From: a virus
Taxonomy: Duplodnaviria > Caudoviricetes
Strand: one strand, 5' to 3'
Virus record (IMG/VR): IMGVR_UViG_3300020138_000097
Coordinates: 1-29,991 of that record
Length of the DNA: 29,991 nt
Shown here one piece after another: positions 6,022 to 27,913 of this stretch. The stretch's first letter is position 1. Each line of letters starts with the position of its first letter. The notes beneath the pieces are model-generated. The model was given only the letters and a program-made list of their open reading frames with translations. It had not been told where the DNA came from and searched no databases. Made by a program: the position numbers and the translations under genes.

Positions 6022-6333
6022 ATGACCGTCAAAAAGCCCAGCCGCAAAAAAGCTGCCGTAAAAAAAACGACCGGCGTCAAACGCCCCCCGCGCCGGCGCA
6101 AAACGGCAAAGAATATCCGCGATGCCATCAACGTATTGGCGCTGATCGAGGCGCTGGAGCAACATGTTCTCGGCGAAAAGAAAATGACGGCGACGCAGGT
6201 CAGCGCCGCGCTGGCGCTTTTGAAAAAAACGCTGCCCGATATCGCGGCCGCCGCCGGCGGCAAAACGGCGGATGACGCCGCTGGCCCCGCTGCCGTCATG
6301 AGCCATGAAGACGCCTTGCAGGCGCTGGAATAA
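6022..6333 (+). CDS. Putative terminase small subunit
   Basis: 103 aa directly upstream of TerL. Helical core LIEALEQHVLGEKKMTATQVSAALALLKKTLPD and C-terminal HEDALQALE, with a basic N-terminal tail. Confidence 0.7.
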   Translation: MTVKKPSRKKAAVKKTTGVKRPPRRRKTAKNIRDAINVLALIEALEQHVLGEKKMTATQVSAALALLKKTLPDIAAAAGGKTADDAAGPAAVMSHEDALQALE

Positions 6334-6348
6334 GAACACCCGAATTTG

Positions 6349-7782
6349 ATGAACGCAAAAGAACAACGCATCCGCGCACGGCTGATGCATGATTTCGCGC
6401 ATTACGCGAAAAAATGCCTTTTCATCCGCAGCAAGAACGGCGCCATCGCCCCCTTGCAGCTGAACGCCGCGCAGCGCCATTTGCACGACCGCCTGGAGGA
6501 ACAACTGCTGACCACGGGCCGCGTGCGCGCGCTGGTTTTGAAGGGGCGGCAGCAAGGATGCTCCACCTACGCGCAGGCGCGGTTTTACTGGAAAACGACG
6601 CACCGCCGCGGCGTGCGCGCCTTTATCCTGACGCATCTCGACGAAGCGTCGCAGAACATCTACCAGATCGTGCGGCGGTTTCATGACAACTGCCCTGCCG
6701 CCGTGCGTCCGCAAACGGGGCTGGCCAACCAGCGTAGTCTTTTGTTCAGCCGCCTCGATTCCGGTTACAGCGTCGGCACCGCCAAATCGCAAGGCATCGG
6801 GCGGTCGCATACCATACAGTATTTTCACGGCTCGGAAGTCGCCTATTGGCGCCATGCCGAAGACCATATCGCCGGCGTTCTGCAAGCCGTGCCCGATGCG
6901 AAGGGAACGGAAATCATATTGGAAAGCACCTCCGCCGGCGCGACGGGGCTGTTCTATCAATTGTGCCAGGAGGCCATCAAAGGCCGGTCCGAATTCATTT
7001 TCGTTTTCATCCCGTGGTTCTGGCAGGACGAATACCGCGCCGCGCCGCCCGAAGATTTCACGCCGACGCCCGACGAAGCCGAATACAAACAGGCTTTCCA
7101 TCTGGACGCCGCGCAAATCTACTGGCGCAGGTTGAAAATCGCCGCGCTGGGCGGCATCTGGACGTTTCGCCGTGAATATCCCAGCACGCCCGACGAAGCC
7201 TTTCATAGCGACCGTCCGGGCGCGCTGTGGCAGCGCGAAACGATCGAGAAAAATCGCCGCCACGCCGACGACGCGCCCGAGATGAAGCGCATTATCGTCG
7301 CCGTCGACCCTGCCGTGACGGCAAACCGCCACAGCGACGAGACGGGCATTGTCGTCGCGGGCCTCGGCACGGACGATCATGCCTATATTCTGGCCGATCT
7401 GTCGGGTAAATACGCGCCCGCCGCCTGGGCATCGCAGGTGGTCAATGCCTATTACGCCCATGCCGCCGATTGCGTGGTCGCGGAAGTCAACCAAGGCGGC
7501 GACCTGGTCGAGCATACGCTGCGCAGTTTCGATCCGTCGATCGCCTATAAATCCGTGCATGCCAGCCGCGGCAAGATCGCGCGGGCGGAGCCCGTGGCGG
7601 CGCTGGATACGCGCGGCATGGTGCATCACATCGGCCGTTTCGCGCAGCTGGAAGACCAGATGTGCGCCTTTGACCCGGTCGAAAACGCCAAAAGCCCCGA
7701 CCGCGTGGATGCGCGCACCTGGGCGGTGACGGAATTGCTGCTGAAACGCCCCCAGCCCGCGCAGCCGCTGATCTGGCGATAA
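6349..7782 (+). CDS. terL: Terminase large subunit
   Basis: Walker A-like LKGRQQGCST, Walker B-like YFHGSEVAYW and ILEST coupling motif. RNase H-like nuclease motifs IIVAVDPA, DETGIVVAG, EVNQGGD and SPDRVDA. Confidence 0.93.
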   Translation: MNAKEQRIRARLMHDFAHYAKKCLFIRSKNGAIAPLQLNAAQRHLHDRLEEQLLTTGRVRALVLKGRQQGCSTYAQARFYWKTTHRRGVRAFILTHLDEASQNIYQIVRRFHDNCPAAVRPQTGLANQRSLLFSRLDSGYSVGTAKSQGIGRSHTIQYFHGSEVAYWRHAEDHIAGVLQAVPDAKGTEIILESTSAGATGLFYQLCQEAIKGRSEFIFVFIPWFWQDEYRAAPPEDFTPTPDEAEYKQAFHLDAAQIYWRRLKIAALGGIWTFRREYPSTPDEAFHSDRPGALWQRETIEKNRRHADDAPEMKRIIVAVDPAVTANRHSDETGIVVAGLGTDDHAYILADLSGKYAPAAWASQVVNAYYAHAADCVVAEVNQGGDLVEHTLRSFDPSIAYKSVHASRGKIARAEPVAALDTRGMVHHIGRFAQLEDQMCAFDPVENAKSPDRVDARTWAVTELLLKRPQPAQPLIWR

Positions 7783-7847
7783 TAAATGCCCTGTGTCATT
7801 CCGGGCGCAGCCGACACTTTTTATCTTTAATCATGGAGTATATCCGG

Positions 7848-9074
7848 ATGGGTTTTAAAAATCCGCTCGCCGCCCTGTTCGGCCGCAAGGAACAAAAGGC
7901 CAGCGCGGCCGCGCCGCTGCTGGTGCAATGGGGCGCGGGGCAGCCGCGTTTCACGCCGCGCCAGTACGACCAGTTGGCGCGCGAGGCCTATCAGAAAAAC
8001 GTGATCGCCTACCGCTGCATCCGCCTTGTCAGCCAGAACGCGGCGACCGTGCCGTGGATCGTGTACCGGGGCAAGGGAGAAAACCGCACGCGGCTGGAAG
8101 ACCACCCGCTCAAATCTTTGCTTGAAAACCCCAACCCCATGCAGGGCGGCGCCGAATTGTTCGAGGCGCTGTTCGGTTTTTATCTGATTGCGGGCAACAG
8201 CTATCTCGAAGGCGTCGGCGCGACGGACGCGGCCCCGCGCGAGCTTTGGACGCTGCGCCCCGACCGCATGCGCGTTATTCCCGGCAAACACGGCGTGCCC
8301 GCCGCCTACCGCTACCAGATCGGCGGGGAGGCAATGGATTTTCCCGTCGATGCCCTGACGGGCGCTTCCGCCGTGCTGCATTTGAAATCCTTTCACCCGC
8401 TGGACGACTGGTACGGCATGAGCCCGCTGGAATCCGCCGCCGCCAGCATCGACCAGCATAACGACGCCGCGCGCTGGAACGCCGCGCTGTTGCAGGCGGG
8501 CGGGCGGCCTTCCGGCGCGCTGGTGTACAAGCCCGCACATCCCGACGGGGCCGCGACGCTGACGGACGAGCAGCGCCAGTCGTTGAAAAACGAACTGGAG
8601 GCCTTTTTCCAGGGCCCCGATAACGCCGGCCGCCCGCTGGTGCTGGAAGGCGGGCTGGACTGGCGCGATATGTCGCTCTCGCCCAAGGATATGGACTGGC
8701 TGGCGGGCAAGGATGTTTCCGCGCGGGAAATCGCGCTGGCCTTCCACGTGCCGCCGCAGCTGATCGGCATCGAGGGGTCGCTGACCTTCGCGAATTTCGA
8801 GCAGGCGCGGCTCGCCCTCTTCGACGATGCCGTCATCCCCCTGCTGGACCATGTGAAGGACGAGCTGAACAAATGGCTTTGCCCGCAATTCGGCACCGAT
8901 CTTTGCATCGGCTATGACATGGATGCGATCGAGGCCTTTGCCCCCCGTCGTGAAAAAGCCTGGGCGCGCATCAGCGGCGCCGATTTCATGACGGTGAATG
9001 AAAAGCGCATCGCCCTCGGCCTCTCCCCGCTCGACGGCGGGGATGTTTTGCCCGGAATGGAGAGCAAGGCGTGA
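7848..9074 (+). CDS. Phage portal protein, HK97 family (RcGTA g3-like)
   Basis: Motifs PRELWTLRPDRM, HLKSFHPLDDWYGMSPLE, NAGRPLVLEGGLDW, AREIALAFHVPP and FMTVNEKR. The GGAG RBS at 7835 favours ATG 7848. Confidence 0.95.
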   Translation: MGFKNPLAALFGRKEQKASAAAPLLVQWGAGQPRFTPRQYDQLAREAYQKNVIAYRCIRLVSQNAATVPWIVYRGKGENRTRLEDHPLKSLLENPNPMQGGAELFEALFGFYLIAGNSYLEGVGATDAAPRELWTLRPDRMRVIPGKHGVPAAYRYQIGGEAMDFPVDALTGASAVLHLKSFHPLDDWYGMSPLESAAASIDQHNDAARWNAALLQAGGRPSGALVYKPAHPDGAATLTDEQRQSLKNELEAFFQGPDNAGRPLVLEGGLDWRDMSLSPKDMDWLAGKDVSAREIALAFHVPPQLIGIEGSLTFANFEQARLALFDDAVIPLLDHVKDELNKWLCPQFGTDLCIGYDMDAIEAFAPRREKAWARISGADFMTVNEKRIALGLSPLDGGDVLPGMESKA

Positions 9075-9379
9075 TGCAGGCGCTGCGCTTCACGCTCGGC
9101 GGCGTGCAGTATGCCATCCGGCCCGATGCGTGCCTTTTGCTGCAGATCGAGGACGAGCTTGGCGCGCTGCCCGCGCTGGCTACCGGATTTCGCACGGGCC
9201 GATGGCATTTCGCCGATCTGGTCAGCCTGTTGCACATGATGCTGCAACACGGCGGCAGGACGCTGGATTACCACGTGCTCGGCAATCTCGTCCTGCAAGC
9301 GGGCGTAGCGGAATGCCACCGCGCGGTTTTGCGGTTTTTCGATCTTTTGCACCTGCCCTTTGACAACGTTACCGAATAA
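9071..9379 (+). CDS. Hypothetical protein resembling the GTA-gp10 tail assembly chaperone
   Basis: GTGA overlap with the portal stop. Pattern FTLGGVQYAIRP..LLQIEDELGALPALATGFRTGRWHFADLVSLL..GG recalls GTA-gp10. Confidence 0.55.
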   Translation: MMQALRFTLGGVQYAIRPDACLLLQIEDELGALPALATGFRTGRWHFADLVSLLHMMLQHGGRTLDYHVLGNLVLQAGVAECHRAVLRFFDLLHLPFDNVTE

Positions 9380-9391: not shown

Positions 9392-11155
9392 ATGACATCC
9401 ATTTCGAACATCGTTTATCAAAAAACACAGTCGGAAGGGACGGGAAACATATCCCTTTCCTCCGTTGCGGGCTATCGCAGTTTTTACGCGGCCTTCGGCA
9501 CGGGCGGCAACGATATGTTTTTTTACGCCCTGCGCCATCATGCACTGGACGAATGGGAGATCGGCACGGGGCATTTGTCGGATGCGACGACGCTGGTGCG
9601 CGATACGGTCATCGCCTCCAGCAATGCGGGCACGCACGTGAGTTTTTCGGCAGGTGACAAAGACGTTGTGAACGACATTCCCGCAGAGCGGCAATTGCCC
9701 CTGCCCGCCGCGCCGCAGACGGGCGATCTGCTGCGCTATGACGGCAGCAAGTGGGAGCGCCTGTCGCGCGGCACGAGCGGCCAGATGCTGCAAAGCACGG
9801 CAGAGGCGATAAACTGGGCCACGCCCGCCATCGGCGATATCGGCGGGCTGCAATCGGCGCTGGACGGCAAAAGCGGCACGGACCATACCCATAGCAGCGC
9901 CGATATGACCGATTTCACCGCGCAAATGGCCGCCAAGGCCGATGCCGTCCACGGCCACGCCATTGACGATGTGACGGATTTGAGCGATGCGCTCGCCGCC
10001 AAAGCCGATGCGGCGCATAGCCATGCGACAGCCGATATCACCGGCCTTGCCGCCGCGCTGGCGGACAAGGCGGCGGCGACGCATACGCATGCCGTCGGCG
10101 ATGTCACGGGCCTGCAATCGGCGCTGGACGGCAAGGCGGATGCGAGCCATACGCATACCGCCGCGGCTATTACGGATCTTTCGGAAGCGCTGGCGGCCTA
10201 TGCGCCCGTGGCGCGGCAGATCGGCGGCGCGGGCAGCCTCACGGGCGGCGGGGATTTAACGGCAGACCGCAGCCTGCAACTGACAGGCGATGCCGATACG
10301 CCCGGCAATAACAAATATTACGGCACCGACGGCGCCGGCGATAAAGGCTTTCACGACCTGCCCACGGGCGCGGCGGCGGAGAATATCAGCGCCGATACCG
10401 CGGCGCTGCGCCTGATTACGGGCGGCGATGTGCAGGCGGCGCTCGCCGCCGCCGATGGCGCCCTGCTGCAAGGCGGTTTTTCACCCCGGCATTTGATTGC
10501 CTTTCATCATCTGGCGGGTAACCTGTCGGGCAGCATTTTCACGGCATCCGCCAGCGGCTCGGGCGCGAATGCCGGCACCGTCGATACGGATTATATCCGG
10601 AATACCGACGCCCTCGGCACGCTGTATATGTCTTGCGGGACGGCGGCGTCAGGCGCGGCCCTGCGCGGCTTCGGCAACGCGCCGCTGATGGTGCACGCAG
10701 ACGGCAAGACCATCAAAATCGTCAGCCGCATACAAATCGGCACGCTGATCGCGACGGGATCGCAGGAATTCTATGCCTGGGGCGGGTTGACCGCCGGCAC
10801 GGCCGCCACGACCAATCCCGATACGACCGTCGGCGTTTACTGGATCTATGATAAAACCAGCGCCAACTGGCAATTGCGCCGACGGCTTGCATCCTCCACC
10901 GACAGCGTGGATACGGGCGTCGTGGTGGAAGTGGATACCTGGTACGACATGGCTCTGACCGTCCACGGCGACAGCGACCAGAACGACGTTTCCATGACGC
11001 TCGCCATCAACGGCACCGATGTCGCCACGATCGATACGCTGCCCGCTTATGTGTCCTATAATGTCGTTTCCGCCGCGATCCAGAAAAAGCTCGGCAGCGG
11101 CGCGCGTTACCTCTACCTCGACTACGAGGGTATTTTCGCAGGGCGCAGCGCATGA
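9392..11155 (+). CDS. Virion fibre-like protein with HxH repeats
   Basis: N-terminal phage fibre-type domain (GTGNISL..EWEIGTG..TTLVRDTVIASSNAG..FSAGDKDV), central 22-aa HxH repeats and a beta-rich C-terminal domain. Confidence 0.75.
   Translation: MTSISNIVYQKTQSEGTGNISLSSVAGYRSFYAAFGTGGNDMFFYALRHHALDEWEIGTGHLSDATTLVRDTVIASSNAGTHVSFSAGDKDVVNDIPAERQLPLPAAPQTGDLLRYDGSKWERLSRGTSGQMLQSTAEAINWATPAIGDIGGLQSALDGKSGTDHTHSSADMTDFTAQMAAKADAVHGHAIDDVTDLSDALAAKADAAHSHATADITGLAAALADKAAATHTHAVGDVTGLQSALDGKADASHTHTAAAITDLSEALAAYAPVARQIGGAGSLTGGGDLTADRSLQLTGDADTPGNNKYYGTDGAGDKGFHDLPTGAAAENISADTAALRLITGGDVQAALAAADGALLQGGFSPRHLIAFHHLAGNLSGSIFTASASGSGANAGTVDTDYIRNTDALGTLYMSCGTAASGAALRGFGNAPLMVHADGKTIKIVSRIQIGTLIATGSQEFYAWGGLTAGTAATTNPDTTVGVYWIYDKTSANWQLRRRLASSTDSVDTGVVVEVDTWYDMALTVHGDSDQNDVSMTLAINGTDVATIDTLPAYVSYNVVSAAIQKKLGSGARYLYLDYEGIFAGRSA
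9830..10200 (+). repeat. 66-nt/22-aa tandem repeat (phage tail repeat-like)
   Basis: HxH codons start at 9884, 9950, 10016, 10082 and 10148. The 23-mer CTGCAATCGGCGCTGGACGGCAA is identical at 9848 and 10112, which is 4x66 nt apart. Confidence 0.9.
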
Positions 11156-11346: not shown

Positions 11347-11691
11347 ATGCATATCAACCCCCATCCCCTGATCCGTACCCATAGCGGGGAGGATATCGTC
11401 CTTGCCTTTCACGTGACGGACGCGGCGGGCGTGGCGCTGGATCTGACCGAAGCTGCCGCCACCTATAAAATCGCCCGCCGCGCGGGAGAATCCGCGCTGC
11501 TCGTCAAAACGCAGGAGGACGGCATCGTCCTTTCCGGCGGCACGGCGACGGTATCGCTGAACACGGCAGCACTGGCAGCGGACGGGCAGCCGTTGATCGG
11601 CGACTTCTGGGGGCAGCTGACCCTGTCCCTGAACGGCGCCACGCAGGTGGCGGCCGAAGGGCCGCTCGCCGTCGCCCCTGTCATTGCCTGA
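11347..11691 (+). CDS. Small beta-sandwich structural/adaptor protein (BppU-N/LtfC-like)
   Basis: GEDIVLAFHVTDAAGVALDLTEAAATYKIAR..GTATVSL pattern typical of fibre-attachment domains. Confidence 0.55.
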   Translation: MHINPHPLIRTHSGEDIVLAFHVTDAAGVALDLTEAAATYKIARRAGESALLVKTQEDGIVLSGGTATVSLNTAALAADGQPLIGDFWGQLTLSLNGATQVAAEGPLAVAPVIA

Positions 11692-11711: not shown

Positions 11712-12446
11712 ATGTCCCTGCATCTGACTTCGCCGCTGGAACTGAAATTCGTCGCCGGTGGCGGCACGTTCGAAGGCTATGCCTCCGTTTTCCACGTCAC
11801 CGACAGCGCCAACGACCGCGTGCAACCGGGCGCGTTCCGAAAATCGCTGGAAAGCGCGCGGGCGGAAAACCGCCTGCCGCCGCTGCTATGGCAGCACGAC
11901 GCGCAAAAGCCCATCGGCGTCTGGCACGAGATGTTCGAGGACAGCCACGGGCTGTTTGTCCGCGGGGAGCTGTTTGTGGAGGACATCGCCCAGGCGCGCG
12001 AAGCCTATAAGCTCATGCGCGCGGGTGTCGTCACGGGGCTGTCCATCGGCTACCGCACTATCAAGGCCGAACGCGACGCCAAAAGCGGCGCGCGGCTGCT
12101 GACCGAAGTGGAATTGCTGGAAGTTTCCATGGTCACTTTCCCCGCCAATGCGCTGGCACGGGTGCGGCATGTGAAATCCCTGCTGGCGGACGGACAAATT
12201 CCGTCCGAACGTGAATTTGAGGCTTTCCTGCGCGAGGCAGGCCTGAGCCGCAAACAAGCCAAGGGGCTGATCGCCCATGGCTATAAAGCCCTCATTTCTG
12301 ACGGCTGCAACGCCCTCGACGCGCGGGATGCGGCGTCAACGGCGGCAAGCGATGATGCCGACACCCATGCCGCCATCCGGCGGCTGGCGGAGGATATGCA
12401 TCGTGCCGCCGCTTCCCTTTCCCTCCTCTCTTTTGACAAGGAATAA
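11712..12446 (+). CDS. Prohead protease, HK97 family (peptidase S78)
   Basis: FEGYASVF, LLWQHD, GLSIGY and LLEVSMVTFPAN motifs. Confidence 0.95.
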   Translation: MSLHLTSPLELKFVAGGGTFEGYASVFHVTDSANDRVQPGAFRKSLESARAENRLPPLLWQHDAQKPIGVWHEMFEDSHGLFVRGELFVEDIAQAREAYKLMRAGVVTGLSIGYRTIKAERDAKSGARLLTEVELLEVSMVTFPANALARVRHVKSLLADGQIPSEREFEAFLREAGLSRKQAKGLIAHGYKALISDGCNALDARDAASTAASDDADTHAAIRRLAEDMHRAAASLSLLSFDKE

Positions 12447-14328: not shown

Positions 14329-14348
14329 TTCCCCTGCCCCCTCCCCTG

Positions 14349-14385: not shown

Positions 14386-14391
14386 CCAACC

Positions 14392-14645
14392 AAACAGTTC
14401 TTTGAAACCGGGAAATCCCGTCTGGTTGTAAAAAACTCCATGCGCGAATCTTGCGCAGACTGGACGCGCTTCATGCCGCGGAAGAAGCGGAAGACGTTAA
14501 TCTTCCCGGATTTGACTTCCACGGGTTAAGAGGTTTTAAACCGAAACGGTATACAATACATGTGAATGGGCCTTGGTGCATTACGTTCGCTTTCGAGAAG
14601 GGTCATGCAAGCGAGGTTGACTTTGAAAATTACCATCAAAATTGA
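14392..14645 (+). pseudogene. higB: HigB/RelE-family toxin, 5'-truncated and frameshifted
   Basis: KQFFETGKSRLVV in one frame and LHARILRRLDAL..LPGFDFHGLRG..RYTIHVNGPWCITFAF..DFENYH in the -1 frame. The shift is at the A6 run 14430-14435. No start codon or RBS for the first segment. Confidence 0.8.
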
Positions 14646-14661
14646 TGGAAGGAATTTAGTG

Positions 14662-14973: not shown

Positions 14974-14995
14974 AGACTACCCCAGTAAACCAGAC

Positions 14996-17760: not shown

Positions 17761-17794
17761 CTTTTGCCTGTATTTTTTATAAAAGGAGACCGCC

Positions 17795-19267: not shown

Positions 19268-19624
19268 ATGTCCAACCCCACATGGCCGGAAACCCTGCCT
19301 GCCGCGCCGCTGGCGGACGGGTTTCAGGAAACCTGGCCCGATACGACGCTGCGCAGCCAGACCGATATGGGCCCTGCCAAAACGCGGCCGCGCAGCACGG
19401 CAGGCATCGGCAAGCTTGTCCTTGCCTATTACCTGACAGCGGCGCAATACGCGGATTTGAAGAGTTTTTATCAAAACGACCTGGCGGGTGGCAGCCTGCG
19501 GTTCGACATGCCGCATCCCGTCGGCGGCGCCACGATCACCTGCCGCCTTTTAAAACCGCCCGCGCCCGCCGCCGCCGCGCCGGGGCGGTTCAAGGTCGCG
19601 CTGGAGCTGGAGGTGCTGCCGTGA
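19268..19624 (+). CDS. Distal/minor tail protein (lambda gpM-like position)
   Basis: WPETLP..LRSQTDMGPAKTRPRSTA..FYQNDLAGGSLRFDMPHP. AAGGGAG RBS. Confidence 0.75.
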   Translation: MSNPTWPETLPAAPLADGFQETWPDTTLRSQTDMGPAKTRPRSTAGIGKLVLAYYLTAAQYADLKSFYQNDLAGGSLRFDMPHPVGGATITCRLLKPPAPAAAAPGRFKVALELEVLP

Positions 19625-20094
19625 GCCGCGAAATTTCCCCCGCCGCGCGCGCGGCCCTGCATGCGCCCGAAACGTCGGATGTTTTTCTGGTCTTGCTGAC
19701 GATTGACCATGCCGACATGCAAAGCCCGATCCGCGTTTGCAACAATACAACCGACATCACCAGCCGCGGCGATATCTACATTGCCTATCCGTTCCAGCTG
19801 ACGCTGCCCGATGACGAGGACAACCGCCCGCCGCGCGCGCGGCTGACGATCGATAACGTCGACCGGCAGATTGTCCAGGCCGTGCGCAGCTTGACGTCGT
19901 CGCCCACGGTCACCATCGAGATTATCCGCGCCGCCGACCCCGATGTGGCGGAGGCCCGGTTTCAGGACTTCCGCTTTACGAATATTTCCTATGATTCGCA
20001 CCGGGTGGAAGGGGACCTGACCGTCGAGGATTTCACGGCCGAACCCTATCCGGCAGCGTCTTTTTCGCCCAGCCTGTTCCCCGGATTGTTTTAA
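19621..20094 (+). CDS. DUF1833-family tail tip protein
   Basis: GTGA overlap. LVLLTIDH..PIRVCNN..YPFQLTLP..RLTIDNVDRQI..FSPSLFPGLF. Confidence 0.8.
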   Translation: MSREISPAARAALHAPETSDVFLVLLTIDHADMQSPIRVCNNTTDITSRGDIYIAYPFQLTLPDDEDNRPPRARLTIDNVDRQIVQAVRSLTSSPTVTIEIIRAADPDVAEARFQDFRFTNISYDSHRVEGDLTVEDFTAEPYPAASFSPSLFPGLF

Positions 20095-20181
20095 AAAAAC
20101 CATAAAATTAAGCATAATCAGCCCTTTTTAAGACTTCATTTAATTTTCTTATGGTAAGATATAAAAAATCGGGATAAGATA

Positions 20182-20196
20182 TTAAAAATCAGTTAA
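20182..20196. promoter_or_regulatory. CtrA-box-like site TTAA-N7-TTAA
   Basis: TTAA AAATCAG TTAA within the AT-rich 20095-20260 spacer. Confidence 0.5.
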
Positions 20197-20260
20197 AGAA
20201 ACTCGATTCACCAACGGCAAACCATACCGCGCCGCAAGGCAAGGTTTTTAGGGGGCTAGA

Positions 20261-20518
20261 ATGACGAAATCACAGTTCATGGATACCGGCGCACCGACAG
20301 CCAATGATTTTCTGACGCGCTCCCTGACCGCCGTCGCCGTCGATACCCGCCACGGCATTACGACAGCCTTCGCCGAGGAAGTAAAGTTCATCAAAGACAA
20401 CAGCCCGAACCAGGAACGCGCCGGTGTCTGGGCGGATAAGGTGCTGAAAACTGAAGAAGCCCCGAAAGCGGCATCAGCTGTGCGTCGCGCCCCGCCGGGT
20501 TCCGGCATGAAGGGTTGA
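20261..20518 (+). CDS. Small orphan protein (85 aa), inserted gene
   Basis: AGGGGG RBS, its own AT-rich upstream region and a downstream terminator. Confidence 0.65.
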   Translation: MTKSQFMDTGAPTANDFLTRSLTAVAVDTRHGITTAFAEEVKFIKDNSPNQERAGVWADKVLKTEEAPKAASAVRRAPPGSGMKG

Positions 20519-20554
20519 TCTCTTGATACGTTTCACCTGACAAAGGCATTTTCG

Positions 20555-20589
20555 AAAAAACCCGCCGCGGCATGAACGGCGGGTTTTTT
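20555..20589. terminator. Bidirectional Rho-independent terminator
   Basis: AAAAAACCCGCCG, 9-nt loop, CGGCGGGTTTTTT. Confidence 0.85.
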
Positions 20590-20626
20590 CATGCCCGCTT
20601 TTATCCCTGCGCCAAGGATATTTCAC

Positions 20627-21040
20627 ATGCCCATTCCACTCTGGGCGGGCCGGTATATCGGTCTGCCGTTCCGCGACCATGGCCGCGACCGCAACGGGCT
20701 GGACTGCTGGGGGCTGGTGCGGCTGGTGCTGTCGGAACAATTCGGGCATATGCTGCCCTCGCTGGCGCAGGAGTACCCGCACAGCCGCGCGGCGGAAAAA
20801 ATCAGCGATGTCATCCTGCGCGAAATCCCGCTGTGGGACGCCATCCCCGCGGGCGGCGAAAAAGCGGGCGATGTCATCGTTCTGCGCCTTTGCGGCAAGC
20901 CGCTACATGTCGGCACGGTGCTGGGCGATGCGCATATGCTGCACATCGAGTCCGGCATCAACAGCGCGATCGAGCGTTACGACGGCACGCGGTGGAAAGA
21001 CCGCGTTTTCGGCTTTTACCGTTACAGGAAGGTATTTTAA
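20627..21040 (+). CDS. NlpC/P60 tail-associated peptidase
   Basis: YIGLPF..GRDRNGLDCWGLVRLV (catalytic Cys), GDVIVL, PLHVG and MLH. AAGGA RBS. Confidence 0.92.
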   Translation: MPIPLWAGRYIGLPFRDHGRDRNGLDCWGLVRLVLSEQFGHMLPSLAQEYPHSRAAEKISDVILREIPLWDAIPAGGEKAGDVIVLRLCGKPLHVGTVLGDAHMLHIESGINSAIERYDGTRWKDRVFGFYRYRKVF

Positions 21041-24000
21041 TGCCCATGACCAACGCTTCGACCGGCACTTCGAGCGAGGCTTTGCCGGCAACAGGAAAGC
21101 AGGGCCGCGTCACCGTCAGTCTTGCGCCCCACCCCTTTGCCGTGGAGCGCATCCAGGCCCGCATGCCCGCGGGCGGCACGGTGGCGGGGATTCTGGCGGG
21201 CTTTGCCGGCGATGCCGCCGCCCTGCCCCACGCGCATGCCTATATCGACGGCGCCTATATCCCGCGCGATAAATGGCATGCCGTGCGCCCCAAGGCCGGC
21301 ACGGTCCTGACCCTGCGCGTCGTGCCGATGGGCAGCGGGGGCGGCAAGAACCCCTTGCGCACCGTTTTATCGCTGGCGCTGATCGCGGCGAGCCCGATGA
21401 TCGCCGCGGGCATCGCGGGCGCGCTGGGCGTCACGGCAGGGGCGGCCTTCATGGGCATCAGCGCCGCGCGGATCATCACGGCGGGCGTGAATCTCCTGGG
21501 CCGGCTGGCGCTGAACGCCCTCGCCCCGCCGGGCAAGCCGCGCTTCGGCATGGGGTTGCAGGAAAGCCCGACGCTGTTCATTCAGGGCGCACGCAACCAG
21601 GCCTATCCCTTCGCGCGCGTGCCGAAGGTTTTGGGCAGACACCGCTTTGTGCCGCCGCTGGGCGCCATGCCTTATACCGAAACGGCAGGCAACGACCAGT
21701 ATATTCGCATGATTTTCGTCTGGGGATACGGCCCTCTGCATATCAGCGACATCAAGATCGGCGAAACGCCGATCGAGCAATTTGACGGCGTGGATATCGA
21801 AACGCGGCAGGGATACCCCGACGATCCGCCGCTGACGCTGTACAGCAACAGCGTCATGCAAACCGATATGAACATCACGCTCCGGCAGGCGGACGGCTAT
21901 GTCATCCGCACGACGGAAACCGATGCCGATGAGATATCCGTCGATATTACCCTGCCGCGCGGACTGGTGGTTTTCGGCGGCAACGGCAGCAAACGCGCAA
22001 CCGAGGTGCAGCTGGAGGTGCAATACAGCCCCGTCGGCGCCGACGCGTGGAGCGCGCCCGCCACAAGCTATAAGCCGATCGCCGCCAAAAACCTGACCCT
22101 GCCCGCAAGGCCGGGCGGATATCAAAAGCCGGGCCATATAAACACGATGCAGCGCTATGACCGCATTTTTCTGGATACGGCATCGGGCGCGGTTTCCTTC
22201 GTCTCCGGGCCGGTCAAGCGTCTCGGCCATGACGGGGAAGCGCCTGCCCTGCCATCCGTGCCTTCGGGCAAAGTGCCGCTGGCGCGGATCTTGCGGCAAT
22301 CGAGCGACGGCGTACACATCCCCCCCGCCGCCGTGACAAGCGAGCGCGGCCCCGATATCGTCGCCGCCCATTTCGAGGCGGAAACCGATTTCGCCGTGAC
22401 GACCGTCAGCGGCAATAACATCGGTATCGCGGCGGGCGGGCTGAAATACCCCGGCGTTTACCTTGCGGCCAAACAAACATCCGCGCTGCGCCATGCCGTG
22501 GCGTTCAAGGTGCCGCGCGGCAGATACGATGTGCGCGTGCGCCGCATCACCGCCGATGCCGATGACGACAATACCTTCAACGATACCGTCTGGACGGCGC
22601 TGCGCACCGTGCGCAACAGCTACCCTATCCGGATGCAAAACCTCGCCGTCACCGCGCTGCGGATCAAGGCCACCGACCAGATGAACGGCATTGTCGACCG
22701 GCTGAACGGCGTCGTGCATTCCATCCTGCCCGATTGGAACGGGGAAAACTGGGTGGAACAGGCGACATCCAACCCCGCTTCCCTCTACCGCCATGTTTTG
22801 CAGGGCAGCGCGAATGCACGGCCGCTGAACGACGCGCGGCTTGACCTGCCGCGCCTGCAGGCATGGCATGCGGCATGCGCTACGACAGGACGGGAATTCA
22901 ACGCCGTGATCGATTACGACGTTTCCGTGCGTGAAGTGCTGCACGATATCGCCGCCGCGGGCCGCGCCAGCCCGACGATACTCGACGGCAAATGGTCGGT
23001 GATCGAGGATCGCCCGCAATCCGTGCCCATCCAGCATTTCACGCCCTATAACACCTACGGCTTTCAAGGGCGCAAAGCCTTTGACGAGGTGCCGGAGGCG
23101 CTGCGCATCCGTTTTATCAATCGCGAAAAAGGCTGGCTGCAGGATGAACGCCTTGTGTTCCGCGACGGGTTTGACGAAGCCACGGCGACGAAATACGAAA
23201 GCCTGACCCTGACCGGCATCACCGACCCCGCGCAGGCCTGGCGCGACGGGCGCTATCATCTGGCCACGGCGCTGCTGCGGCCGGAAACCTACAGTTTTTA
23301 TTGTGATATCGAGCATCTGGTTTGCACGCGCGGCGATTTGATCCGCTTTACGCACGACGTGCCGCTCTTCGGCCTGCACGGCAGCCGCGTGGCGGCAGTT
23401 GTGGCGGATCCCGCCGATGAAAGCATTGTTCTCGGCATCCGCATGGAAAGCGCCATGCCGATGGCGGCAGGTGAAAGCTATGCCGCAAGGTTCCGCCATG
23501 CCGACGGCAGCAGCTCGGTGGTGCCGCTGCGCACGCAGGAAGGCACGCATGACACCGTGACCTTCGCCGTGCCGCAACCGCTGACGGCCGCGCCCGAACC
23601 GGGCGATCTGCTGCTGGCGGGCATCGCGGGGCGCGAGAGCGTGGCGCTGGTGGTGCAGGCCATCGAGCCGCAAAGCGATCTCGGCGCGCGCATTACCTGC
23701 GTTGATGCCGCGCCCGCCATCCATGCGGCAGATCAGGGCAGCATCCCGCTTTATAACAGCCGGATGACCCTCCCCGCCGAACTGCAACGCCCGCCGCGCC
23801 CGCAATTGACGCGCATCCAGGCCGGGGCCGATACGGCAATTCGCCATGCCGACGGCTCCGTCACCAGCCAGACGATTTTGCATCTGGCCGCGCCCGCCTA
23901 TACGGGAGGGCTCAATGTGCGGGCGCAGGCCCGCGCGATCGGGGAAAGTTTTTATCACGACGTCACCCTGCTTTCCGCCACCCCCGCGCGCGTGGCGATC

Positions 24001-25653
24001 ACGGGGCTGGATCCTGCCGACATTTACGATCTGCGCCTGCGTTATGTGACTTCGGCGGGCATGTTCTCCGAACCGCTGGTGATTGCGGGCTACAGCGCGG
24101 CGGACGGCACGATGCCGCCGCCCGATGTGACAAGCCTGAATGTTTATACCGTAGGTCACACCAGCTATCTCGTCTGGCAAATGGCGCAGATGGAAGGGAT
24201 TACCGGTTTCAAGCTGCGCTTTGCGGCGGAAACCCATGACGCAAACTGGCAGAATGCCGCGGATATCGGCGGCGCCCTGCCGGCGGATGCGCGCTCGACG
24301 GCGCAACCCGCCCGCGTCGGCACCTATTTACTGAAAGCGATCGGCGCAAACGGGCGCGAAAGCCTGCAAGCCGTCACCGCCGTGACCGATATTGCCGCCG
24401 TTTCCGGCTATAACGCCGTGCTGACCGTCAACGAAGGGCCGGCCTTTGACGGCGCGACGAACGATGTCGTTCTGGCCGACGATACCCTGCAACTGGCCGC
24501 CGGCCATGTGGAAGGCCAGTATTATTTCGCCGAGGAAATCGACCTCGGTCAAATCTATACCAGCCTTGTCACCGCGCATGTGGCGGCGACGGGCCTTGAC
24601 CGCGCGGAAAGCCTCGACATCTGGCCCGATTTTGACAGGATCGACAATATCGACAACAACAGCGCCCCCGGCCTGTGGGATGTGCAACTGCAAATTCGCA
24701 CCACGACCGACCCGCGCTTTATCCCCGCCGTGCAAGCGCTGACACAGGAAAGCGCCTTCGACCATGCGGATTGGACGAAAACCCGCTGCGGCATCACCGC
24801 GAATGCGGCAACCGCGCCGGACGAATCAAACGCCGCCGATAAAATCGTCGAGGATGCCGCCGCCGGTACGCATATCGTTTCGCAGCCGACAACCGCCGTT
24901 GACAACGCGCCCGCCGCCTTCGGCCTTTTCGTGAAAGCGGGAGAGCGCGGCTTTGCGGGCATTTACCTCTCCACCGGCGCGACGGATCTCGACGATGCCA
25001 TCGGCGCGACGATTGATTTGTCGAGCGGCGCGACATCGTATCTTTACACCTATGGCACGGCGACCGGCATTACCGTCGCGGCGCAGGACATGGGCGGCGG
25101 CTGGTGGCGGTTTGCCGTTTCCGGCACCGTGAAGCCGGAAGGCAGCGGCGATGCCGTTTATGCCCAAATACGGCTGGCTGACGCATCGGGCAGCACCGTC
25201 TATACGGGAGACGGCAGTTCCGGCCTTTACGTCTGGGGCGCGCATGTGACGCAAACATCGCTGCCCTACCGGCCCGTCTGGTCGGACTGGCGCGATTTCA
25301 CTCTGGGCGAATATACGGCGCGGGGGTTCATGTTCCGCGCGCAATTGCGCAGTCGCATGGCGACGGTCACGCCTGTCGTATCGGATATCAGCGTCACGGT
25401 CGACATGCCCGACCGCACGGAAAGCGGCAAGGATATTGACCCCGATGCGGCAGGATCGACAGTCGGATTCGCCAAAGCCTTCCGCGATACGCCCGCGCTG
25501 ACCGTCACGCCGCAGGATATGGCGACGGGCGATTATTACACCATCACCGGCATCACGCCCACGGGGTTTCATATCCGGTTTTTCAACAGCGGCGGCGGCG
25601 GCATCAGCCGCCGTTTCGACTATGTCGCCAAAGGCTTTGGCGAACGCGCATAA
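21040..25653 (+). CDS. Tail tip / host-specificity protein J (gpI-like N-terminus fused, 1537 aa)
   Basis: TAATG overlap. GARNQAYPFARVPKVLGRHR, GYGPLHISDIKIGETPI, GRYDVRVRRIT, LRIKATDQMNG and TSNPA motifs, FN3-like segments, and C-terminal RRFDYVAKGFG. Confidence 0.9.
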   Translation: MPMTNASTGTSSEALPATGKQGRVTVSLAPHPFAVERIQARMPAGGTVAGILAGFAGDAAALPHAHAYIDGAYIPRDKWHAVRPKAGTVLTLRVVPMGSGGGKNPLRTVLSLALIAASPMIAAGIAGALGVTAGAAFMGISAARIITAGVNLLGRLALNALAPPGKPRFGMGLQESPTLFIQGARNQAYPFARVPKVLGRHRFVPPLGAMPYTETAGNDQYIRMIFVWGYGPLHISDIKIGETPIEQFDGVDIETRQGYPDDPPLTLYSNSVMQTDMNITLRQADGYVIRTTETDADEISVDITLPRGLVVFGGNGSKRATEVQLEVQYSPVGADAWSAPATSYKPIAAKNLTLPARPGGYQKPGHINTMQRYDRIFLDTASGAVSFVSGPVKRLGHDGEAPALPSVPSGKVPLARILRQSSDGVHIPPAAVTSERGPDIVAAHFEAETDFAVTTVSGNNIGIAAGGLKYPGVYLAAKQTSALRHAVAFKVPRGRYDVRVRRITADADDDNTFNDTVWTALRTVRNSYPIRMQNLAVTALRIKATDQMNGIVDRLNGVVHSILPDWNGENWVEQATSNPASLYRHVLQGSANARPLNDARLDLPRLQAWHAACATTGREFNAVIDYDVSVREVLHDIAAAGRASPTILDGKWSVIEDRPQSVPIQHFTPYNTYGFQGRKAFDEVPEALRIRFINREKGWLQDERLVFRDGFDEATATKYESLTLTGITDPAQAWRDGRYHLATALLRPETYSFYCDIEHLVCTRGDLIRFTHDVPLFGLHGSRVAAVVADPADESIVLGIRMESAMPMAAGESYAARFRHADGSSSVVPLRTQEGTHDTVTFAVPQPLTAAPEPGDLLLAGIAGRESVALVVQAIEPQSDLGARITCVDAAPAIHAADQGSIPLYNSRMTLPAELQRPPRPQLTRIQAGADTAIRHADGSVTSQTILHLAAPAYTGGLNVRAQARAIGESFYHDVTLLSATPARVAITGLDPADIYDLRLRYVTSAGMFSEPLVIAGYSAADGTMPPPDVTSLNVYTVGHTSYLVWQMAQMEGITGFKLRFAAETHDANWQNAADIGGALPADARSTAQPARVGTYLLKAIGANGRESLQAVTAVTDIAAVSGYNAVLTVNEGPAFDGATNDVVLADDTLQLAAGHVEGQYYFAEEIDLGQIYTSLVTAHVAATGLDRAESLDIWPDFDRIDNIDNNSAPGLWDVQLQIRTTTDPRFIPAVQALTQESAFDHADWTKTRCGITANAATAPDESNAADKIVEDAAAGTHIVSQPTTAVDNAPAAFGLFVKAGERGFAGIYLSTGATDLDDAIGATIDLSSGATSYLYTYGTATGITVAAQDMGGGWWRFAVSGTVKPEGSGDAVYAQIRLADASGSTVYTGDGSSGLYVWGAHVTQTSLPYRPVWSDWRDFTLGEYTARGFMFRAQLRSRMATVTPVVSDISVTVDMPDRTESGKDIDPDAAGSTVGFAKAFRDTPALTVTPQDMATGDYYTITGITPTGFHIRFFNSGGGGISRRFDYVAKGFGERA

Positions 25654-25677: not shown

Positions 25678-26676
25678 ATGTCACAAGCAAATCCGACCAT
25701 CGGCGCGGACAAGACCGGTCTTGCCTACCGGCAGGAAGATAACGACGGCAAGAAAGCGCTGCTGACGCACCACAAAGGCGCGACCGCGCCGAGCTATGCG
25801 GAAGCGGGGCTTCTCTGGATCGACGATAGCACGACGCCATGGAAGCTGAAACTGCACGACGGCGCGGACTGGATCGTGCTGGGCAGCGTGAATGCCGATA
25901 ACAACGCCTTCCTGCCCTATCTCGGCACGGGGGCGCTGAAGCAGGTGAACTTCGCCGCCGATACGGGCACGGTCAATGCCGCCGCCATTGCGCCCGTGCC
26001 CGCCGTTGCGGCCTATGCGACGGGATTGACCGTGACGCTGCGCCCTGCCGTCACCACAACAGGCCCTGCGACCCTCGCCGTCAGCGACCTGGATGCGGAG
26101 GCCGTCAAGCTGGCGGACGGCAGCGACCTTCCTGCCGGCGCGATGCGGGCGGGCGGGATTTATTTTCTGGTCTATGACGGCACGGATTTCATTCTGGCCA
26201 ATCCGGAAATCGACACGACGCCTGCCACCGGCAGTGTGATCGGCAGCGCCAGCGCCGTTTACGACGTCAACGAAAACCTTGAAAGCGTCATCCCCCTGGA
26301 TGACAGCGTGCCGCAGGCGTCGGAGGGCACGGAGATTTTGTCCCTTGTCTATACGGCAAAATCGGCGGCGAATAAATTGCGCCTTTCCTTCCATGCCTTC
26401 GGCGCGGCGTCGGAAAGCGGCGTGGCGCTGGTCGCCGCGCTGGTCGTCGACGGCGCGCCCGCCGTGTGCGGCGGCGCCGTTGCGGGCGCGTCAAACGCCC
26501 TGCTGCCCGTTTTCTTTATCCACGAGCTGACGCCTGCAGATACGGACAGCCATACCTATGCCGTGCGCATCGGCCCCGGCGCGGCGGGCGCGGTGCGCCT
26601 GAACGGCACGATGTCCGGCAGGCTTTTGGGCGGCACGGCGGCGGCGCGGCTGGTGATCGAAGAAATCAAGGGATAA
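25678..26676 (+). CDS. Tail fibre / receptor-binding protein
   Basis: Follows J with AAAGGA RBS. N-terminal MSQ..GATAPSYAEAGLLWID..LKLHDGADWI and middle AADTGTVNA..TGPATL..IYFLVYDGTDF are fibre-type modules. Confidence 0.75.
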   Translation: MSQANPTIGADKTGLAYRQEDNDGKKALLTHHKGATAPSYAEAGLLWIDDSTTPWKLKLHDGADWIVLGSVNADNNAFLPYLGTGALKQVNFAADTGTVNAAAIAPVPAVAAYATGLTVTLRPAVTTTGPATLAVSDLDAEAVKLADGSDLPAGAMRAGGIYFLVYDGTDFILANPEIDTTPATGSVIGSASAVYDVNENLESVIPLDDSVPQASEGTEILSLVYTAKSAANKLRLSFHAFGAASESGVALVAALVVDGAPAVCGGAVAGASNALLPVFFIHELTPADTDSHTYAVRIGPGAAGAVRLNGTMSGRLLGGTAAARLVIEEIKG

Positions 26677-26681: not shown

Positions 26682-26909
26682 ATGGGCGTTGAAGTCATTT
26701 CCATGCTGACCCTGACGCTGACGGTGATGATCCACCTTGTCAGCACGGTCTGGTGGGCGGCCAGCATCACACGGCGCGTGGAGCACATCGAAAAATGGAT
26801 CGGCCATAACGAACACACGGCCGAACGGCTGGCCGCGCTGGAGCAGCGCATCGACCATTTGAACGGCGGCATCAACCGCATCGAGCTTTTCCTGCGCCAA
26901 AGACCCTGA
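26682..26909 (+). CDS. Single-TM coiled-coil lysis-region protein (holin/antiholin-like)
   Basis: One N-terminal hydrophobic helix, then ERLAALEQRIDHLNGGINRIE, directly before the endolysin. Confidence 0.6.
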   Translation: MGVEVISMLTLTLTVMIHLVSTVWWAASITRRVEHIEKWIGHNEHTAERLAALEQRIDHLNGGINRIELFLRQRP

Positions 26910-26924
26910 ACGGAGACATCCATC

Positions 26925-27368
26925 ATGCACAGTTTTTTACTGCCCCGGGGCATCCGCAACAACAACCCCGGCAATATCCGCCTGAGCGCGACGCGCTGGC
27001 AAGGCCAGAAACCGATCCAGCAGGACACCGAATTCGTCGAGTTTGAAAATCCGCAAGACGGCATCCGCGCGTTGATGAAGCTTTTACTGACCTACCAGCG
27101 CAAATACGGCCTCGATACCGTGGAGAGCATCATCAACCGTTATGCCCCGCCGCATGAAAACGCAACCGATCATTATATCCACCATGTCTGCAAGAAGCTG
27201 GGCGTGCGGCGGCGCGATGTCATTTCGCTGGAGAACCGCGCCTTGCTGTGCCTGCTGGCCAAAGCGATCATTCACCATGAAAACGGCGCGCCGCCGTCCG
27301 CCATGCCCCGCGACTGGTTCGAGCCCGCGGTTTACGCCGCGGCGATGAACGCCCTGCCCCTTCCCTGA
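26925..27368 (+). CDS. Putative endolysin (PM2 P5-like, lysozyme-like family)
   Basis: PRGIRNNNPGNIR, GIRALMKLLLTY, IINRYAPPHEN and IIHHENG motifs. GGAG RBS. Confidence 0.85.
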   Translation: MHSFLLPRGIRNNNPGNIRLSATRWQGQKPIQQDTEFVEFENPQDGIRALMKLLLTYQRKYGLDTVESIINRYAPPHENATDHYIHHVCKKLGVRRRDVISLENRALLCLLAKAIIHHENGAPPSAMPRDWFEPAVYAAAMNALPLP

Positions 27369-27388
27369 AAAAACAAAGGATAACCGCC

Positions 27389-27598
27389 ATGAAAAGACTT
27401 TTGGACTTTTTGCTCGCCCGCGCCAGAGAACGCTCGACCTGGCTGGGCCTGATCTCCCTTATCACCGCGCTGGGAGTGACACTGACAGAAATGCAGAGCG
27501 AGGCCATCATCGCCGCCGGCATGTCGCTCGCGGGCATCGTCGCCGTTTTCACGACGGACAAGAACGATGGTAATGATAATGACGGCGCCGCCGCATGA
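27389..27598 (+). CDS. Putative holin (2 TM)
   Basis: RARERSTWLGLISLITALGV..AIIAAGMSLAGIVAVF, with AAAGGA RBS. Confidence 0.75.
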   Translation: MKRLLDFLLARARERSTWLGLISLITALGVTLTEMQSEAIIAAGMSLAGIVAVFTTDKNDGNDNDGAAA

Positions 27599-27801
27599 CC
27601 GTGCTGTTCGCCTACGGCCTGCCGCTCGGCTTCCTTCTAGCGCTTTGCTGTTATTTTGCCTGGCGCGCAGGACGCGGCGAGGGAGCGACGGCGCAAAAAA
27701 ACCTGGAAGACATAAAGGATAAGGATGCGCGCGTTATCGAAGACCGTTTGCGCCGTGATGCTGCTTATGCAAGGCGCGTGCGCCAGCGTTTCACACGGTA
27801 G
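27595..27801 (+). CDS. Putative inner-membrane spanin (Rz-like)
   Basis: ATGA overlap, N-terminal TM, then a short charged helix ending in RFTR. Confidence 0.65.
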   Translation: MTVLFAYGLPLGFLLALCCYFAWRAGRGEGATAQKNLEDIKDKDARVIEDRLRRDAAYARRVRQRFTR

Positions 27802-27913
27802 TTTTTGCAGGTTGTATACGCCGGTTTATACGGCGCCGGCCGATACGGAGGCCACCTTGCAACAGACAGACCGCAACAATGCGCTCTGGCTGCATTTTTG
27901 CAGCGGCGAATAG
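27725..27913 (+). CDS. Putative outer-membrane spanin lipoprotein (Rz1-like)
   Basis: Overlaps the 3' end of the i-spanin in another frame. Signal with an imperfect lipobox (LLMQGA-C), then GSFC..P..DT..T.QQ..NNALW..FC. Confidence 0.65.
   Translation: MRALSKTVCAVMLLMQGACASVSHGSFCRLYTPVYTAPADTEATLQQTDRNNALWLHFCSGE

What the first reader, a model, noticed from the sequence alone, without database searches (positions are those of the whole stretch)
6022..27913. Candidate distinct gene transfer agent: RcGTA-like head and neck, non-RcGTA tail tip, built-in fibres and lysis
Seen: a complete ~22 kb packaging-head-tail-lysis cluster with no integrase, repressor, replication genes or att repeats, intact structural ORFs, host-like GC and host-type genes interleaved. 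Known: portal, protease, capsid, g6/g7/g8, TP901-1-type tube and chaperones follow the RcGTA order. RcGTA ends in DUF2460, hub, NlpC/P60 and megatron genes and keeps its fibre, head-spike and lysis genes at other loci. Here the tip is gpM-like, DUF1833, NlpC/P60 and I-J, with fibres and lysis contiguous. Inference: a domesticated, self-contained GTA-like particle with a mosaic architecture rather than an autonomous prophage.
Basis: partly seen in the sequence, partly recalled or inferred. Interest (0 to 1): 0.9.

Follow-up and report, generated by a model that had tools for sequence, protein, structure and literature searches.

The report
Independently domesticated phage, candidate GTA family
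A family of uncultured Micavibrio-like bacteria has kept a complete, replication-less set of phage particle and cell-lysis genes at one chromosomal site about as faithfully as a core gene, with a likely on/off switch elsewhere on the chromosome, so it is likely a new kind of gene transfer agent tamed separately from the known ones, although no particle has been seen.

Summary
The 22-kb packaging-head-tail-lysis cluster is real and chromosomal. In the 42 species genomes of the host's GTDB family, TerL occurs in 38, capsid in 37 and the tail-tip gene in 36, against 34 for rpoB. Both flanks are conserved, the genes are under purifying selection and their tree follows rpoB. It is domesticated, not an active prophage. 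(1) The layout is probably not an RcGTA head with a swapped tip: one genome holds a true temperate prophage with the same head, hybrid TerL and tail tip, so the module was likely tamed whole and independently. TerS and tape measure are much shorter than that phage's, as in RcGTA. (2) It is not self-contained: a cI-like repressor, a clipped initiator and a homologue of the phage's late-region gene sit 80-107 kb away in 10 relatives, also vertically inherited, and a phage-type promoter-terminator precedes TerS. RcGTA-family tests fail (tail, TerL, capsid clade, GafA domain). At least 6 of 42 genomes have lost or broken it. DNA packaging and transfer are untested. The scan noted this family once before on other DNA (e1-3514842); no paper was found.

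The parts
5904..5954 (+). Predicted sigma-70 late promoter: -35 (5904-5909), conserved spacer box (5914-5923), -10 (5928-5933), conserved element just past the start (5939-5954)
   Evidence: Start-site motif in 28 of 32 TerS leaders; a like unit precedes the late genes of prophage L347; further standalone copies in G002 and G017
5990..6020 (+). Predicted intrinsic terminator directly before the TerS start codon
   Evidence: Hairpin -15.8 kcal/mol plus T-run; best hairpin lies between motif and TerS in 17 of 28 motif-bearing leaders
6022..6333 (+). Small terminase (inferred), 103 aa: basic tail, two helices, C-terminal docking helix; no folded N-terminal domain
   Evidence: Position; C-terminal motif shared with the genes before related phage TerLs, two of them Pfam Terminase_2; model; no Pfam or PHROG hit of its own
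6346..7782 (+). Large terminase, hybrid: ATPase half of a P22-like phage type, nuclease half RcGTA-like
   Evidence: PF17289; domain-wise BLAST
7833..9074 (+). Portal, sister to RcGTA-like portals
   Evidence: PF04860; RcGTA portal E 1e-96; tree
9071..9379 (+). Extra GTA-gp10-type tail chaperone copy
   Evidence: PF11836; found in 30 loci
9392..11155 (+). Fibre with phage-tail repeats (variable slot)
   Evidence: PF12789, tail PHROGs; full length only in some lineages
11347..11691 (+). Small virion accessory protein travelling with that fibre
   Evidence: phrog_1084; co-occurrence
11712..12446 (+). Prohead protease
   Evidence: PF04586
12450..13736 (+). HK97-type major capsid protein
   Evidence: PF05065; RcGTA g5 E 3e-81; tree places it among phage capsids
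13879..14328 (+). Conserved 149-aa protein after the capsid gene, likely head-associated
   Evidence: phrog_5707; same slot in phages
14390..14973 (+). HigBA toxin-antitoxin insert; HigB broken, HigA intact
   Evidence: PF05015, HTH; intact in L099, L168, L186
15043..16007 (+). Head-tail adaptor (g6-like) and head completion protein (g7-like)
   Evidence: PF05135, PF05521
16047..17275 (.). Interleaved host-type genes: membrane protein (+) and Sel1-repeat protein (-)
   Evidence: PF08238; Sel1 kept at empty sites in G014 and G026
17341..18214 (+). Tail terminator (g8-like) and tail tube
   Evidence: PF11367, PF06199
18211..18773 (+). Tail chaperone pair, second part in the -1 frame (predicted frameshift)
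   Evidence: PF11836; conserved G-rich heptamer and downstream frame, fused in some lineages
18785..19243 (+). Very short tape measure protein, 152 aa
   Evidence: 32% to the C-terminus of the prophage tape measure, which hits tape-measure PHROGs; 98-164 aa in 35 loci
19268..21040 (+). Lambda-like tip: gpM-like distal tail protein, DUF1833, NlpC/P60 (with an 85-aa insert gene at 20261-20518)
21040..25653 (+). Fused I-J central fibre; carries an RcGTA head-spike-fibre-like insertion in this lineage
   Evidence: PF06805, PF13550, PF24801; Rcc01080 E 3.5e-19; insertion in 2 of 31 rows
25678..26676 (+). Side fibre
   Evidence: tail PHROGs; 61% over the N-terminal part to the prophage gene
26682..27913 (+). 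Lysis cassette: holin-like, endolysin, holin-like, overlapping spanin-like pair
   Evidence: phrog_873 endolysin; holin and spanin calls rest on size, hydrophobic runs, overlap and a lipobox-like cysteine, no family hit; purifying selection
1..5582 (.). Left host flank: ankyrin array and two hypothetical genes
27933..29991 (.). Right host flank: ankyrin gene and M48 peptidase

Best explanation
The cluster is a host-owned, vertically inherited remnant of a temperate siphophage that likely makes short-tailed particles, is predicted to fill them headful with host DNA and would release them by lysing the producer, i.e. likely a gene transfer agent domesticated independently of RcGTA. Shown: the gene set, fixed locus, selection, vertical descent, a related true prophage, and a second conserved locus in relatives (cI-like repressor divergent from a clipped initiator winged helix and a homologue of the prophage's late-region gene). 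Inferred: the repressor keeps that operon off; when it lifts, the late-region protein lets RNA polymerase pass the terminator before TerS, like lambda Q or Caulobacter GafZ; a TerS without a folded DNA-binding domain and a TerL with a P22-type ATPase package DNA with little sequence preference; the 100-160-aa tape measure gives a tail shorter than RcGTA's; variable fibres set the target.
For: Prevalence TerL 38/42, capsid 37/42, I-J 36/42 against rpoB 34/42. Downstream flank gene in 17 of 17 and upstream flank in 15 of 17 family genomes read in full. One portal per genome in 5 of 5 tested. dN/dS in chosen close pairs: TerL 0.03-0.15, capsid 0.02-0.13 (13 pairs), I-J 0.10-0.22 (8), endolysin 0.08-0.30 (6), rpoB 0.03-0.07 (9). 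18 of 27 splits shared with rpoB (shuffles at most 3), no strong conflict. Head and terminase are the most conserved parts, so packaging is under selection. No integrase or replication family among flank proteins of five genomes. TerS 71-112 aa against 161 aa in the prophage; lack of the DNA-binding domain marks RcGTA TerS (PMC6854486). Regulator homologue in 36/42 family genomes and 48/301 order genomes, 42 of them among the 46 capsid-positive ones; dN/dS 0.05-0.61, 13 of 20 splits shared with rpoB; it is broken or absent in G039, G005 and G014, where the cluster is too.
Against: No particle, packaged DNA or transfer is shown. Capsid size cannot be read from sequence; the related prophage uses a similar capsid for its own genome. 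Short TerS look-alikes occur in true phages (Atlas clusters 86-90% viral; L035). No cheaper amino-acid use than the prophage relatives, unlike RcGTA-type genes. At least 6 of 42 genomes have deleted or broken the cluster (G014, G026, G039, G004, G022, G005) and G026, G022 and G004 keep the regulator without a whole cluster. The regulator is not detectably related to DUF6456 by Pfam or profile comparison; the antiterminator role rests on position, promoter layout and one language-model hit. Eleven of 28 leaders lack the terminator by my scan, and the promoter unit also stands alone elsewhere in two genomes. The regulator locus could not be checked in the window's own genome.
Confidence: 0.6

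Rival explanations
1. A domesticated particle kept for another job: killing or delaying competitors and kin (PBSX-like, recalled), acting as a decoy, or carrying cargo during life with a eukaryotic host. DNA packaging would be incidental.
For: All domestication evidence fits equally. The locus sits between Dot/Icm secretion genes and ankyrin arrays, which suggests a host-associated life; non-HGT roles were proposed for GTA-like genes of endosymbionts (PMC9254644). Fibres vary fast.
Against: TerL, portal and capsid are the most constrained genes, which a tail-only killer would not need; the tail is non-contractile and very short; no toxin cargo gene is conserved in the cluster.
Confidence: 0.25
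2. A grounded prophage that is slowly decaying, or a selfish element still moved by helper phages.
For: At least 6 of 42 genomes show deletion or decay; a related active-type prophage lives in the same family; toxin-antitoxin inserts occur in the cluster.
Against: dN/dS far below 1 at dS 0.2-1.0 in head, tail and lysis genes; 14 of 17 family loci read in full are complete; tree follows rpoB; third-position GC tracks the host from 0.58 to 0.86 in 6 of 6 genomes; no integrase or att site seen.
Confidence: 0.07
3. On origin: the element descends from the ancestral alphaproteobacterial RcGTA-like cluster and later swapped TerS, the TerL ATPase, capsid and tail tip with phages.
For: Portal is sister to RcGTA-like portals with 97 support; TerL nuclease half is 45-51% identical to 11 RcGTA-type references; gene order matches.
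Against: The G034 prophage shares the hybrid TerL (59%), portal (65%), capsid (59%), tube (53%) and whole tip (46-50%) and branches just outside the element in both trees; its promoter unit, cI and late gene match the element's controls. One capture explains this; the mosaic needs several swaps. Only 46 of 301 order genomes have the capsid. Caveat: the prophage could itself have taken modules from the element, and its two contigs are joined by inference.
Confidence: 0.15

Closest known systems
RcGTA and RcGTA-like elements (Rhodogtaviriformidae)
   Same: Head-neck gene order, portal lineage, TerL nuclease half, GTA-gp10 chaperone, short tape measure, TerS without folded N-terminal domain, regulators at a separate locus, vertical descent.
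   Different: Lambda-like tip instead of DUF2460-hub-megatron; different TerL ATPase; capsid outside the RcGTA-type clade; virus-state residues at the two TerL marker sites; no DUF6456 activator; fibres and lysis inside the cluster; no cheap-amino-acid bias.
Caulobacter CcGTA control by RogA and GafYZ (PMC9632790, PMC11150451)
   Same: Repressor opposite a two-gene operon away from the particle genes; conserved box between -35 and -10; terminator early in the cluster.
   Different: The two genes resemble a clipped phage initiator and the prophage's own late gene; no detectable homology to GafY or GafZ profiles; function untested.
Temperate alphaproteobacterial siphophages: prophage in G034 (L347, L348), Bradyrhizobium phage ppBeUSDA76-1, Rhizobium phage RHph_Y3_1
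   Same: Head-neck-chaperone order and gpM-DUF1833-NlpC-J tip; in G034 also the hybrid TerL, promoter unit, cI and late gene.
   Different: They keep cI/cro/cII, replication, longer TerS, extra head-morphogenesis and neck genes and tape measures of 338+ to 1065 aa; they are not fixed at one locus.
Bartonella BaGTA (recalled; only a search listing seen)
   Same: Separate domestication in an alphaproteobacterial lineage, near secretion and host-interaction genes.
   Different: Different phage ancestor; no run-off replication genes were seen beside either locus here.

Membership tests
GTA viriform (criteria in 10.1101/2022.06.10.494566) | Caudoviricete-derived particle proteins | tested here: met
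   particles themselves not seen
GTA viriform (criteria in 10.1101/2022.06.10.494566) | Fully endogenized, often over several loci | tested here: met
   fixed flanks, no mobility genes, second regulator locus in relatives
GTA viriform (criteria in 10.1101/2022.06.10.494566) | Vertical inheritance and co-diversification | tested here: met
   18 of 27 splits shared with rpoB, no strong conflict, 30 genomes
GTA viriform (criteria in 10.1101/2022.06.10.494566) | Packages mostly random host DNA | not testable with these tools
   only indirect: short TerS, headful-type ATPase relatives
GTA viriform (criteria in 10.1101/2022.06.10.494566) | Head too small for its own genome | not testable with these tools
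   capsid size cannot be read from sequence; loci are 80 kb or more apart in relatives
GTA viriform (criteria in 10.1101/2022.06.10.494566) | Delivers DNA to other cells | not testable with these tools
   no cultured host known to me
RcGTA-like (Rhodogtaviriformidae) | DUF2460-hub-NlpC-megatron tail end | tested here: not met
   absent from the window; DUF2460 in 0 of 5 genomes with Caulobacter control ringing; present in reference clusters
RcGTA-like (Rhodogtaviriformidae) | RcGTA-type TerL over its whole length, with Pro and Cys at the two marker sites (PMC7947584) | tested here: not met
   ATPase half has no significant hit to 11 of 11 references; 24 of 24 element or near-relative rows show Ala and Thr, 7 of 11 references Pro and Cys; column mapping to 282/292 inferred from the paper's text
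RcGTA-like (Rhodogtaviriformidae) | Capsid within the RcGTA-like clade | tested here: not met
   25-row element clade nested among phage capsids; quick tree, sampling biased to hits of the query
RcGTA-like (Rhodogtaviriformidae) | Portal within or beside the RcGTA-like clade | tested here: met
   sister, support 97
RcGTA-like (Rhodogtaviriformidae) | GafA/GafZ (DUF6456) activator | tested here: not met
   0 of 42 over cut-off; profile score within shuffles; Atlas likeness 0.95 for the prophage gene only a lead
RcGTA-like (Rhodogtaviriformidae) | Reduced carbon cost of proteins | tested here: not met
   TerL 3.01, portal 2.96 carbons per side chain against 2.85 and 2.88 in RcGTA-type references; GTA-Hunter itself not run
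Autonomous temperate prophage | Integrase, repressor switch and replication genes contiguous with virion genes; patchy, variable loci | tested here: not met

The most novel reading that the evidence does not exclude
A new family of gene transfer agents, tamed independently of RcGTA and BaGTA from a phage lineage that still infects the same bacteria, which converged on the RcGTA design: TerS without a DNA-reading domain, shrunken tape measure, and repressor-activator genes moved to a distant site. The living temperate relative gives a before-and-after pair for how a phage becomes a GTA.
Probability: 0.5. Interest if true: 0.88.

Novelty: new variant of a known kind. Interest (0 to 1): 0.72.

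Why it matters
How often GTAs arise and which changes turn a phage into one are open questions, studied mostly on a single ancient origin. Here a separate domestication sits beside a close temperate relative (59-65% identical in TerL, portal and capsid), so the differences are countable and testable: TerS swap, tape-measure shortening, loss of replication, relocation of regulators. It also shows that a deep alphaproteobacterial lineage reported to hold only small RcGTA-like clusters (PMC5721377, for cultured Micavibrio) has a complete one of another kind, and that such chromosomal loci enter virus databases as phages.

Tried and rejected
Relatives could not be drawn from the window's own record, so the host was reached through related loci. 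No RNA holder listed; contig depth is one figure per contig and cannot show amplification. Rfam gave nothing above gathering score for the leader in 7 loci. PDB sequence search found nothing for TerL or the gpM alignment. The TerS model (pLDDT 67) gave no match under E 0.001 among viral structures. My first reading 'no activator' was revised after the prophage gene search; the label 'GafZ-like' was then not confirmed. The raw terminator count, 25 of 32 against 23 of 64 shuffles, includes hairpins upstream of the promoter, so 17 of 28 is used. Medians of dN/dS over all pairs (TerL 0.25, capsid 0.16, small genes up to 0.6, rpoB 0.10) are inflated by saturation; ank4 values near 0.7 compare non-orthologous ankyrins. 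The DUF1833 tree alone shows 2 strong conflicts with rpoB. G049 and genomes with fewer than 4 cluster genes were left out of the congruence tree. No complex was predicted and the large profile search was not used. Literature searches found no description of this element; supplements, including genome lists of GTA surveys, were not read and could hold entries.
Full report
Observation. The cluster is as described: TerS, TerL, portal, chaperone copy, fibre, protease, capsid, neck, tube, chaperones, a 152-aa tape measure, a lambda-like tip (gpM-like fold confirmed; DUF1833; NlpC/P60; fused I-J), a side fibre and a lysis cassette, between ankyrin genes. No integrase, repressor or replication family was hit. 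The record is flagged as a virus but is a cut from a chromosome: the same TerS sequence lies on a 479-kb contig, and contigs of the likely source run extend beyond both ends at equal depth.

Host and spread. The best capsid matches in GTDB genomes are titled Micavibrio sp. or Alphaproteobacteria bacterium. In the 42 species genomes of the family of the closest one (G001), TerL is found in 38, capsid in 37 and I-J in 36, mostly once; rpoB, as control for incompleteness, in 34. In 301 genomes drawn from the order the capsid is in 46: 37 of the family, 7 of a sister group and 2 distant phage-type hits. Of 17 family loci read in full, 17 have the same ankyrin gene downstream, 15 the same genes upstream, and 14 are complete; 3 sister loci lie at other sites and have chaperone and tape-measure genes moved forward. 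Wider flanks hold Dot/Icm genes, ankyrin arrays and gyrB-recF-dnaN, with no phage mobility family. G014 and G026 have the flanks joined with only the Sel1 gene left, G039 keeps a part, and G004, G022 and G005 are broken, so the element is ancestral but dispensable.

Selection and descent. In 13 chosen close pairs dN/dS is 0.03-0.15 for TerL, 0.04-0.16 for portal and 0.02-0.13 for capsid; I-J 0.10-0.22 (8 pairs), endolysin 0.08-0.30 (6), rpoB 0.03-0.07 (9) (Nei-Gojobori). For 30 genomes the tree of 11 cluster genes shares 18 of 27 splits with rpoB (shuffles: mean 0.2, maximum 3), holds 12 of 13 strong rpoB splits and has no strong conflict. Third-position GC follows the host in 6 of 6 genomes.

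Relation to RcGTA. Reference clusters with DUF2460 and hub, most also megatron, were identified by Pfam. The portal is sister to RcGTA-like portals, but the capsid clade nests among phage capsids. TerL is a hybrid: residues 1-285 have no significant hit to 11 RcGTA-type TerLs and 47-58% identity to phage TerLs, among them a podovirus with P22-type portal and coat; residues 289-478 are 45-51% identical to the references. The two marker sites of PMC7947584 (passages read) are in the virus state. DUF2460 is absent from 5 of 5 genomes and DUF6456 from 42 of 42 at cut-off. No cultured phage is close: capsid at most 44%, no TerL covering 80%, I-J at most about 37%.

The likely ancestor type. Genome G034 carries a second, related set on two contigs (L347, L348; joined by inference) with cI, cro, cII, RusA and a replication protein, the same hybrid TerL (59%), portal (65%), capsid (59%), neck, tube and the whole gpM-DUF1833-NlpC-J tip, plus a longer tape measure (at least 338 aa), extra head-morphogenesis and neck genes and another endolysin. 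Bradyrhizobium phage ppBeUSDA76-1 has the same order; such head-tail layouts are common in temperate phages (PMC11409702, abstract and part of Results read). The architecture was therefore probably captured whole. Against this prophage the element has a different, short TerS (71-112 aa against 161 aa, phrog_309) that keeps only the shared C-terminal motif; its model shows a disordered basic tail and two helices. RcGTA TerS likewise lacks the DNA-binding domain (PMC6854486, passages), but short look-alikes exist in true phages. Tube-to-gpM distance is at most 1138 bp in 40 of 40 loci; RcGTA's tape measure of about 216 residues spans five tube rings (PMC7296036, passages), so a shorter tail is predicted.

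Control. A sigma-70-type promoter with a conserved spacer box and start-site motif precedes TerS in 28 of 32 leaders, followed by a terminator in 17 of the 28; the prophage has a like unit before its late genes. The prophage's late-region gene has a single-copy homologue in 36 of 42 family genomes (profile match 98.7%) and in 48 of 301 order genomes, 42 of which are capsid-positive (one clade, so not independent). It lies behind a winged-helix gene resembling the N-terminus of a phage initiator and opposite a cI-like HTH-S24 repressor, among host genes, 80-107 kb from the cluster in 10 genomes. These genes are under purifying selection and follow rpoB (13 of 20 splits, no strong conflict); they are broken or missing in G039, G005 and G014 but kept in G026, G022 and G004. 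The layout parallels Caulobacter RogA-GafYZ with its box between -35 and -10 (PMC9632790, PMC11150451, passages), yet homology to GafY or GafZ was not detected; only a language-model search linked the prophage gene to DUF6456.

Verdict. Three of the six viriform criteria (10.1101/2022.06.10.494566, passages) are met and three need experiments; membership of the RcGTA family fails on five of six tests. It most likely works like a GTA (0.6); another domesticated role is the main rival (0.25), as discussed for endosymbionts (PMC9254644, passages). Cultured Micavibrio were reported to have only small clusters (PMC5721377, passages); searches found no paper on this element, supplements unread. The scan reported the family once before (e1-3514842); the prophage relative, hybrid TerL, TerS contrast and regulator locus are not mentioned in that short note.

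Noticed in passing
G002 and G017 (L355, L361, L365, L366, L374); window 5904-6020: The roughly 70-nt promoter plus start-site hairpin unit recurs in standalone intergenic copies (3 extra in G002, 2 in G017), some followed by a terminator and no same-strand gene, two before an acyl-CoA-ligase-like gene: a possible multicopy small RNA or a regulon. No Rfam match.
   Followed up: partly
window 13879-15043; L099, L168, L186, L162, L165: The gap between the post-capsid gene and the adaptor is an insertion hot spot: HigBA in three lineages (broken HigB in the window) and about 1.5-kb inserts in G040 and G036.
   Followed up: partly
window 24730-25250: The I-J fibre of the window and G001 alone carries an inserted domain homologous to the RcGTA head-spike fibre Rcc01080.
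   Followed up: partly
L266, L276, L350 (G065, G061, G081): In the sister group the chaperone pair and tape-measure gene have moved ahead of TerL or the protease, leaving tube next to gpM; the extra chaperone after the portal in the window may be a trace of such moves.
   Followed up: partly
L352, L353, L354, L351, L262: The hosts carry a Dot/Icm type IVB system and very large ankyrin arrays (up to about 277 first-look candidates in one genome) around the cluster, close to dnaN-recF-gyrB; suggests life with eukaryotic hosts.
   Followed up: no
L218, L220, L210, L211: Another group of genomes titled Micavibrio or Bdellovibrionales has an RcGTA-type TerL, portal and capsid followed by tail genes with no Pfam hit: a second unexplained GTA-like layout.
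   Followed up: no
L007-L012: The hybrid TerL (phage ATPase plus RcGTA-like nuclease) occurs full length in several unrelated viral contigs; the genes before TerLs with this ATPase share one C-terminal motif whatever their N-terminal family.
   Followed up: partly
window 20094-20560: An AT-rich gap with its own 85-aa gene and terminator-like hairpin sits between DUF1833 and NlpC/P60; a gap of about 0.4-1 kb is kept there in most relatives.
   Followed up: no
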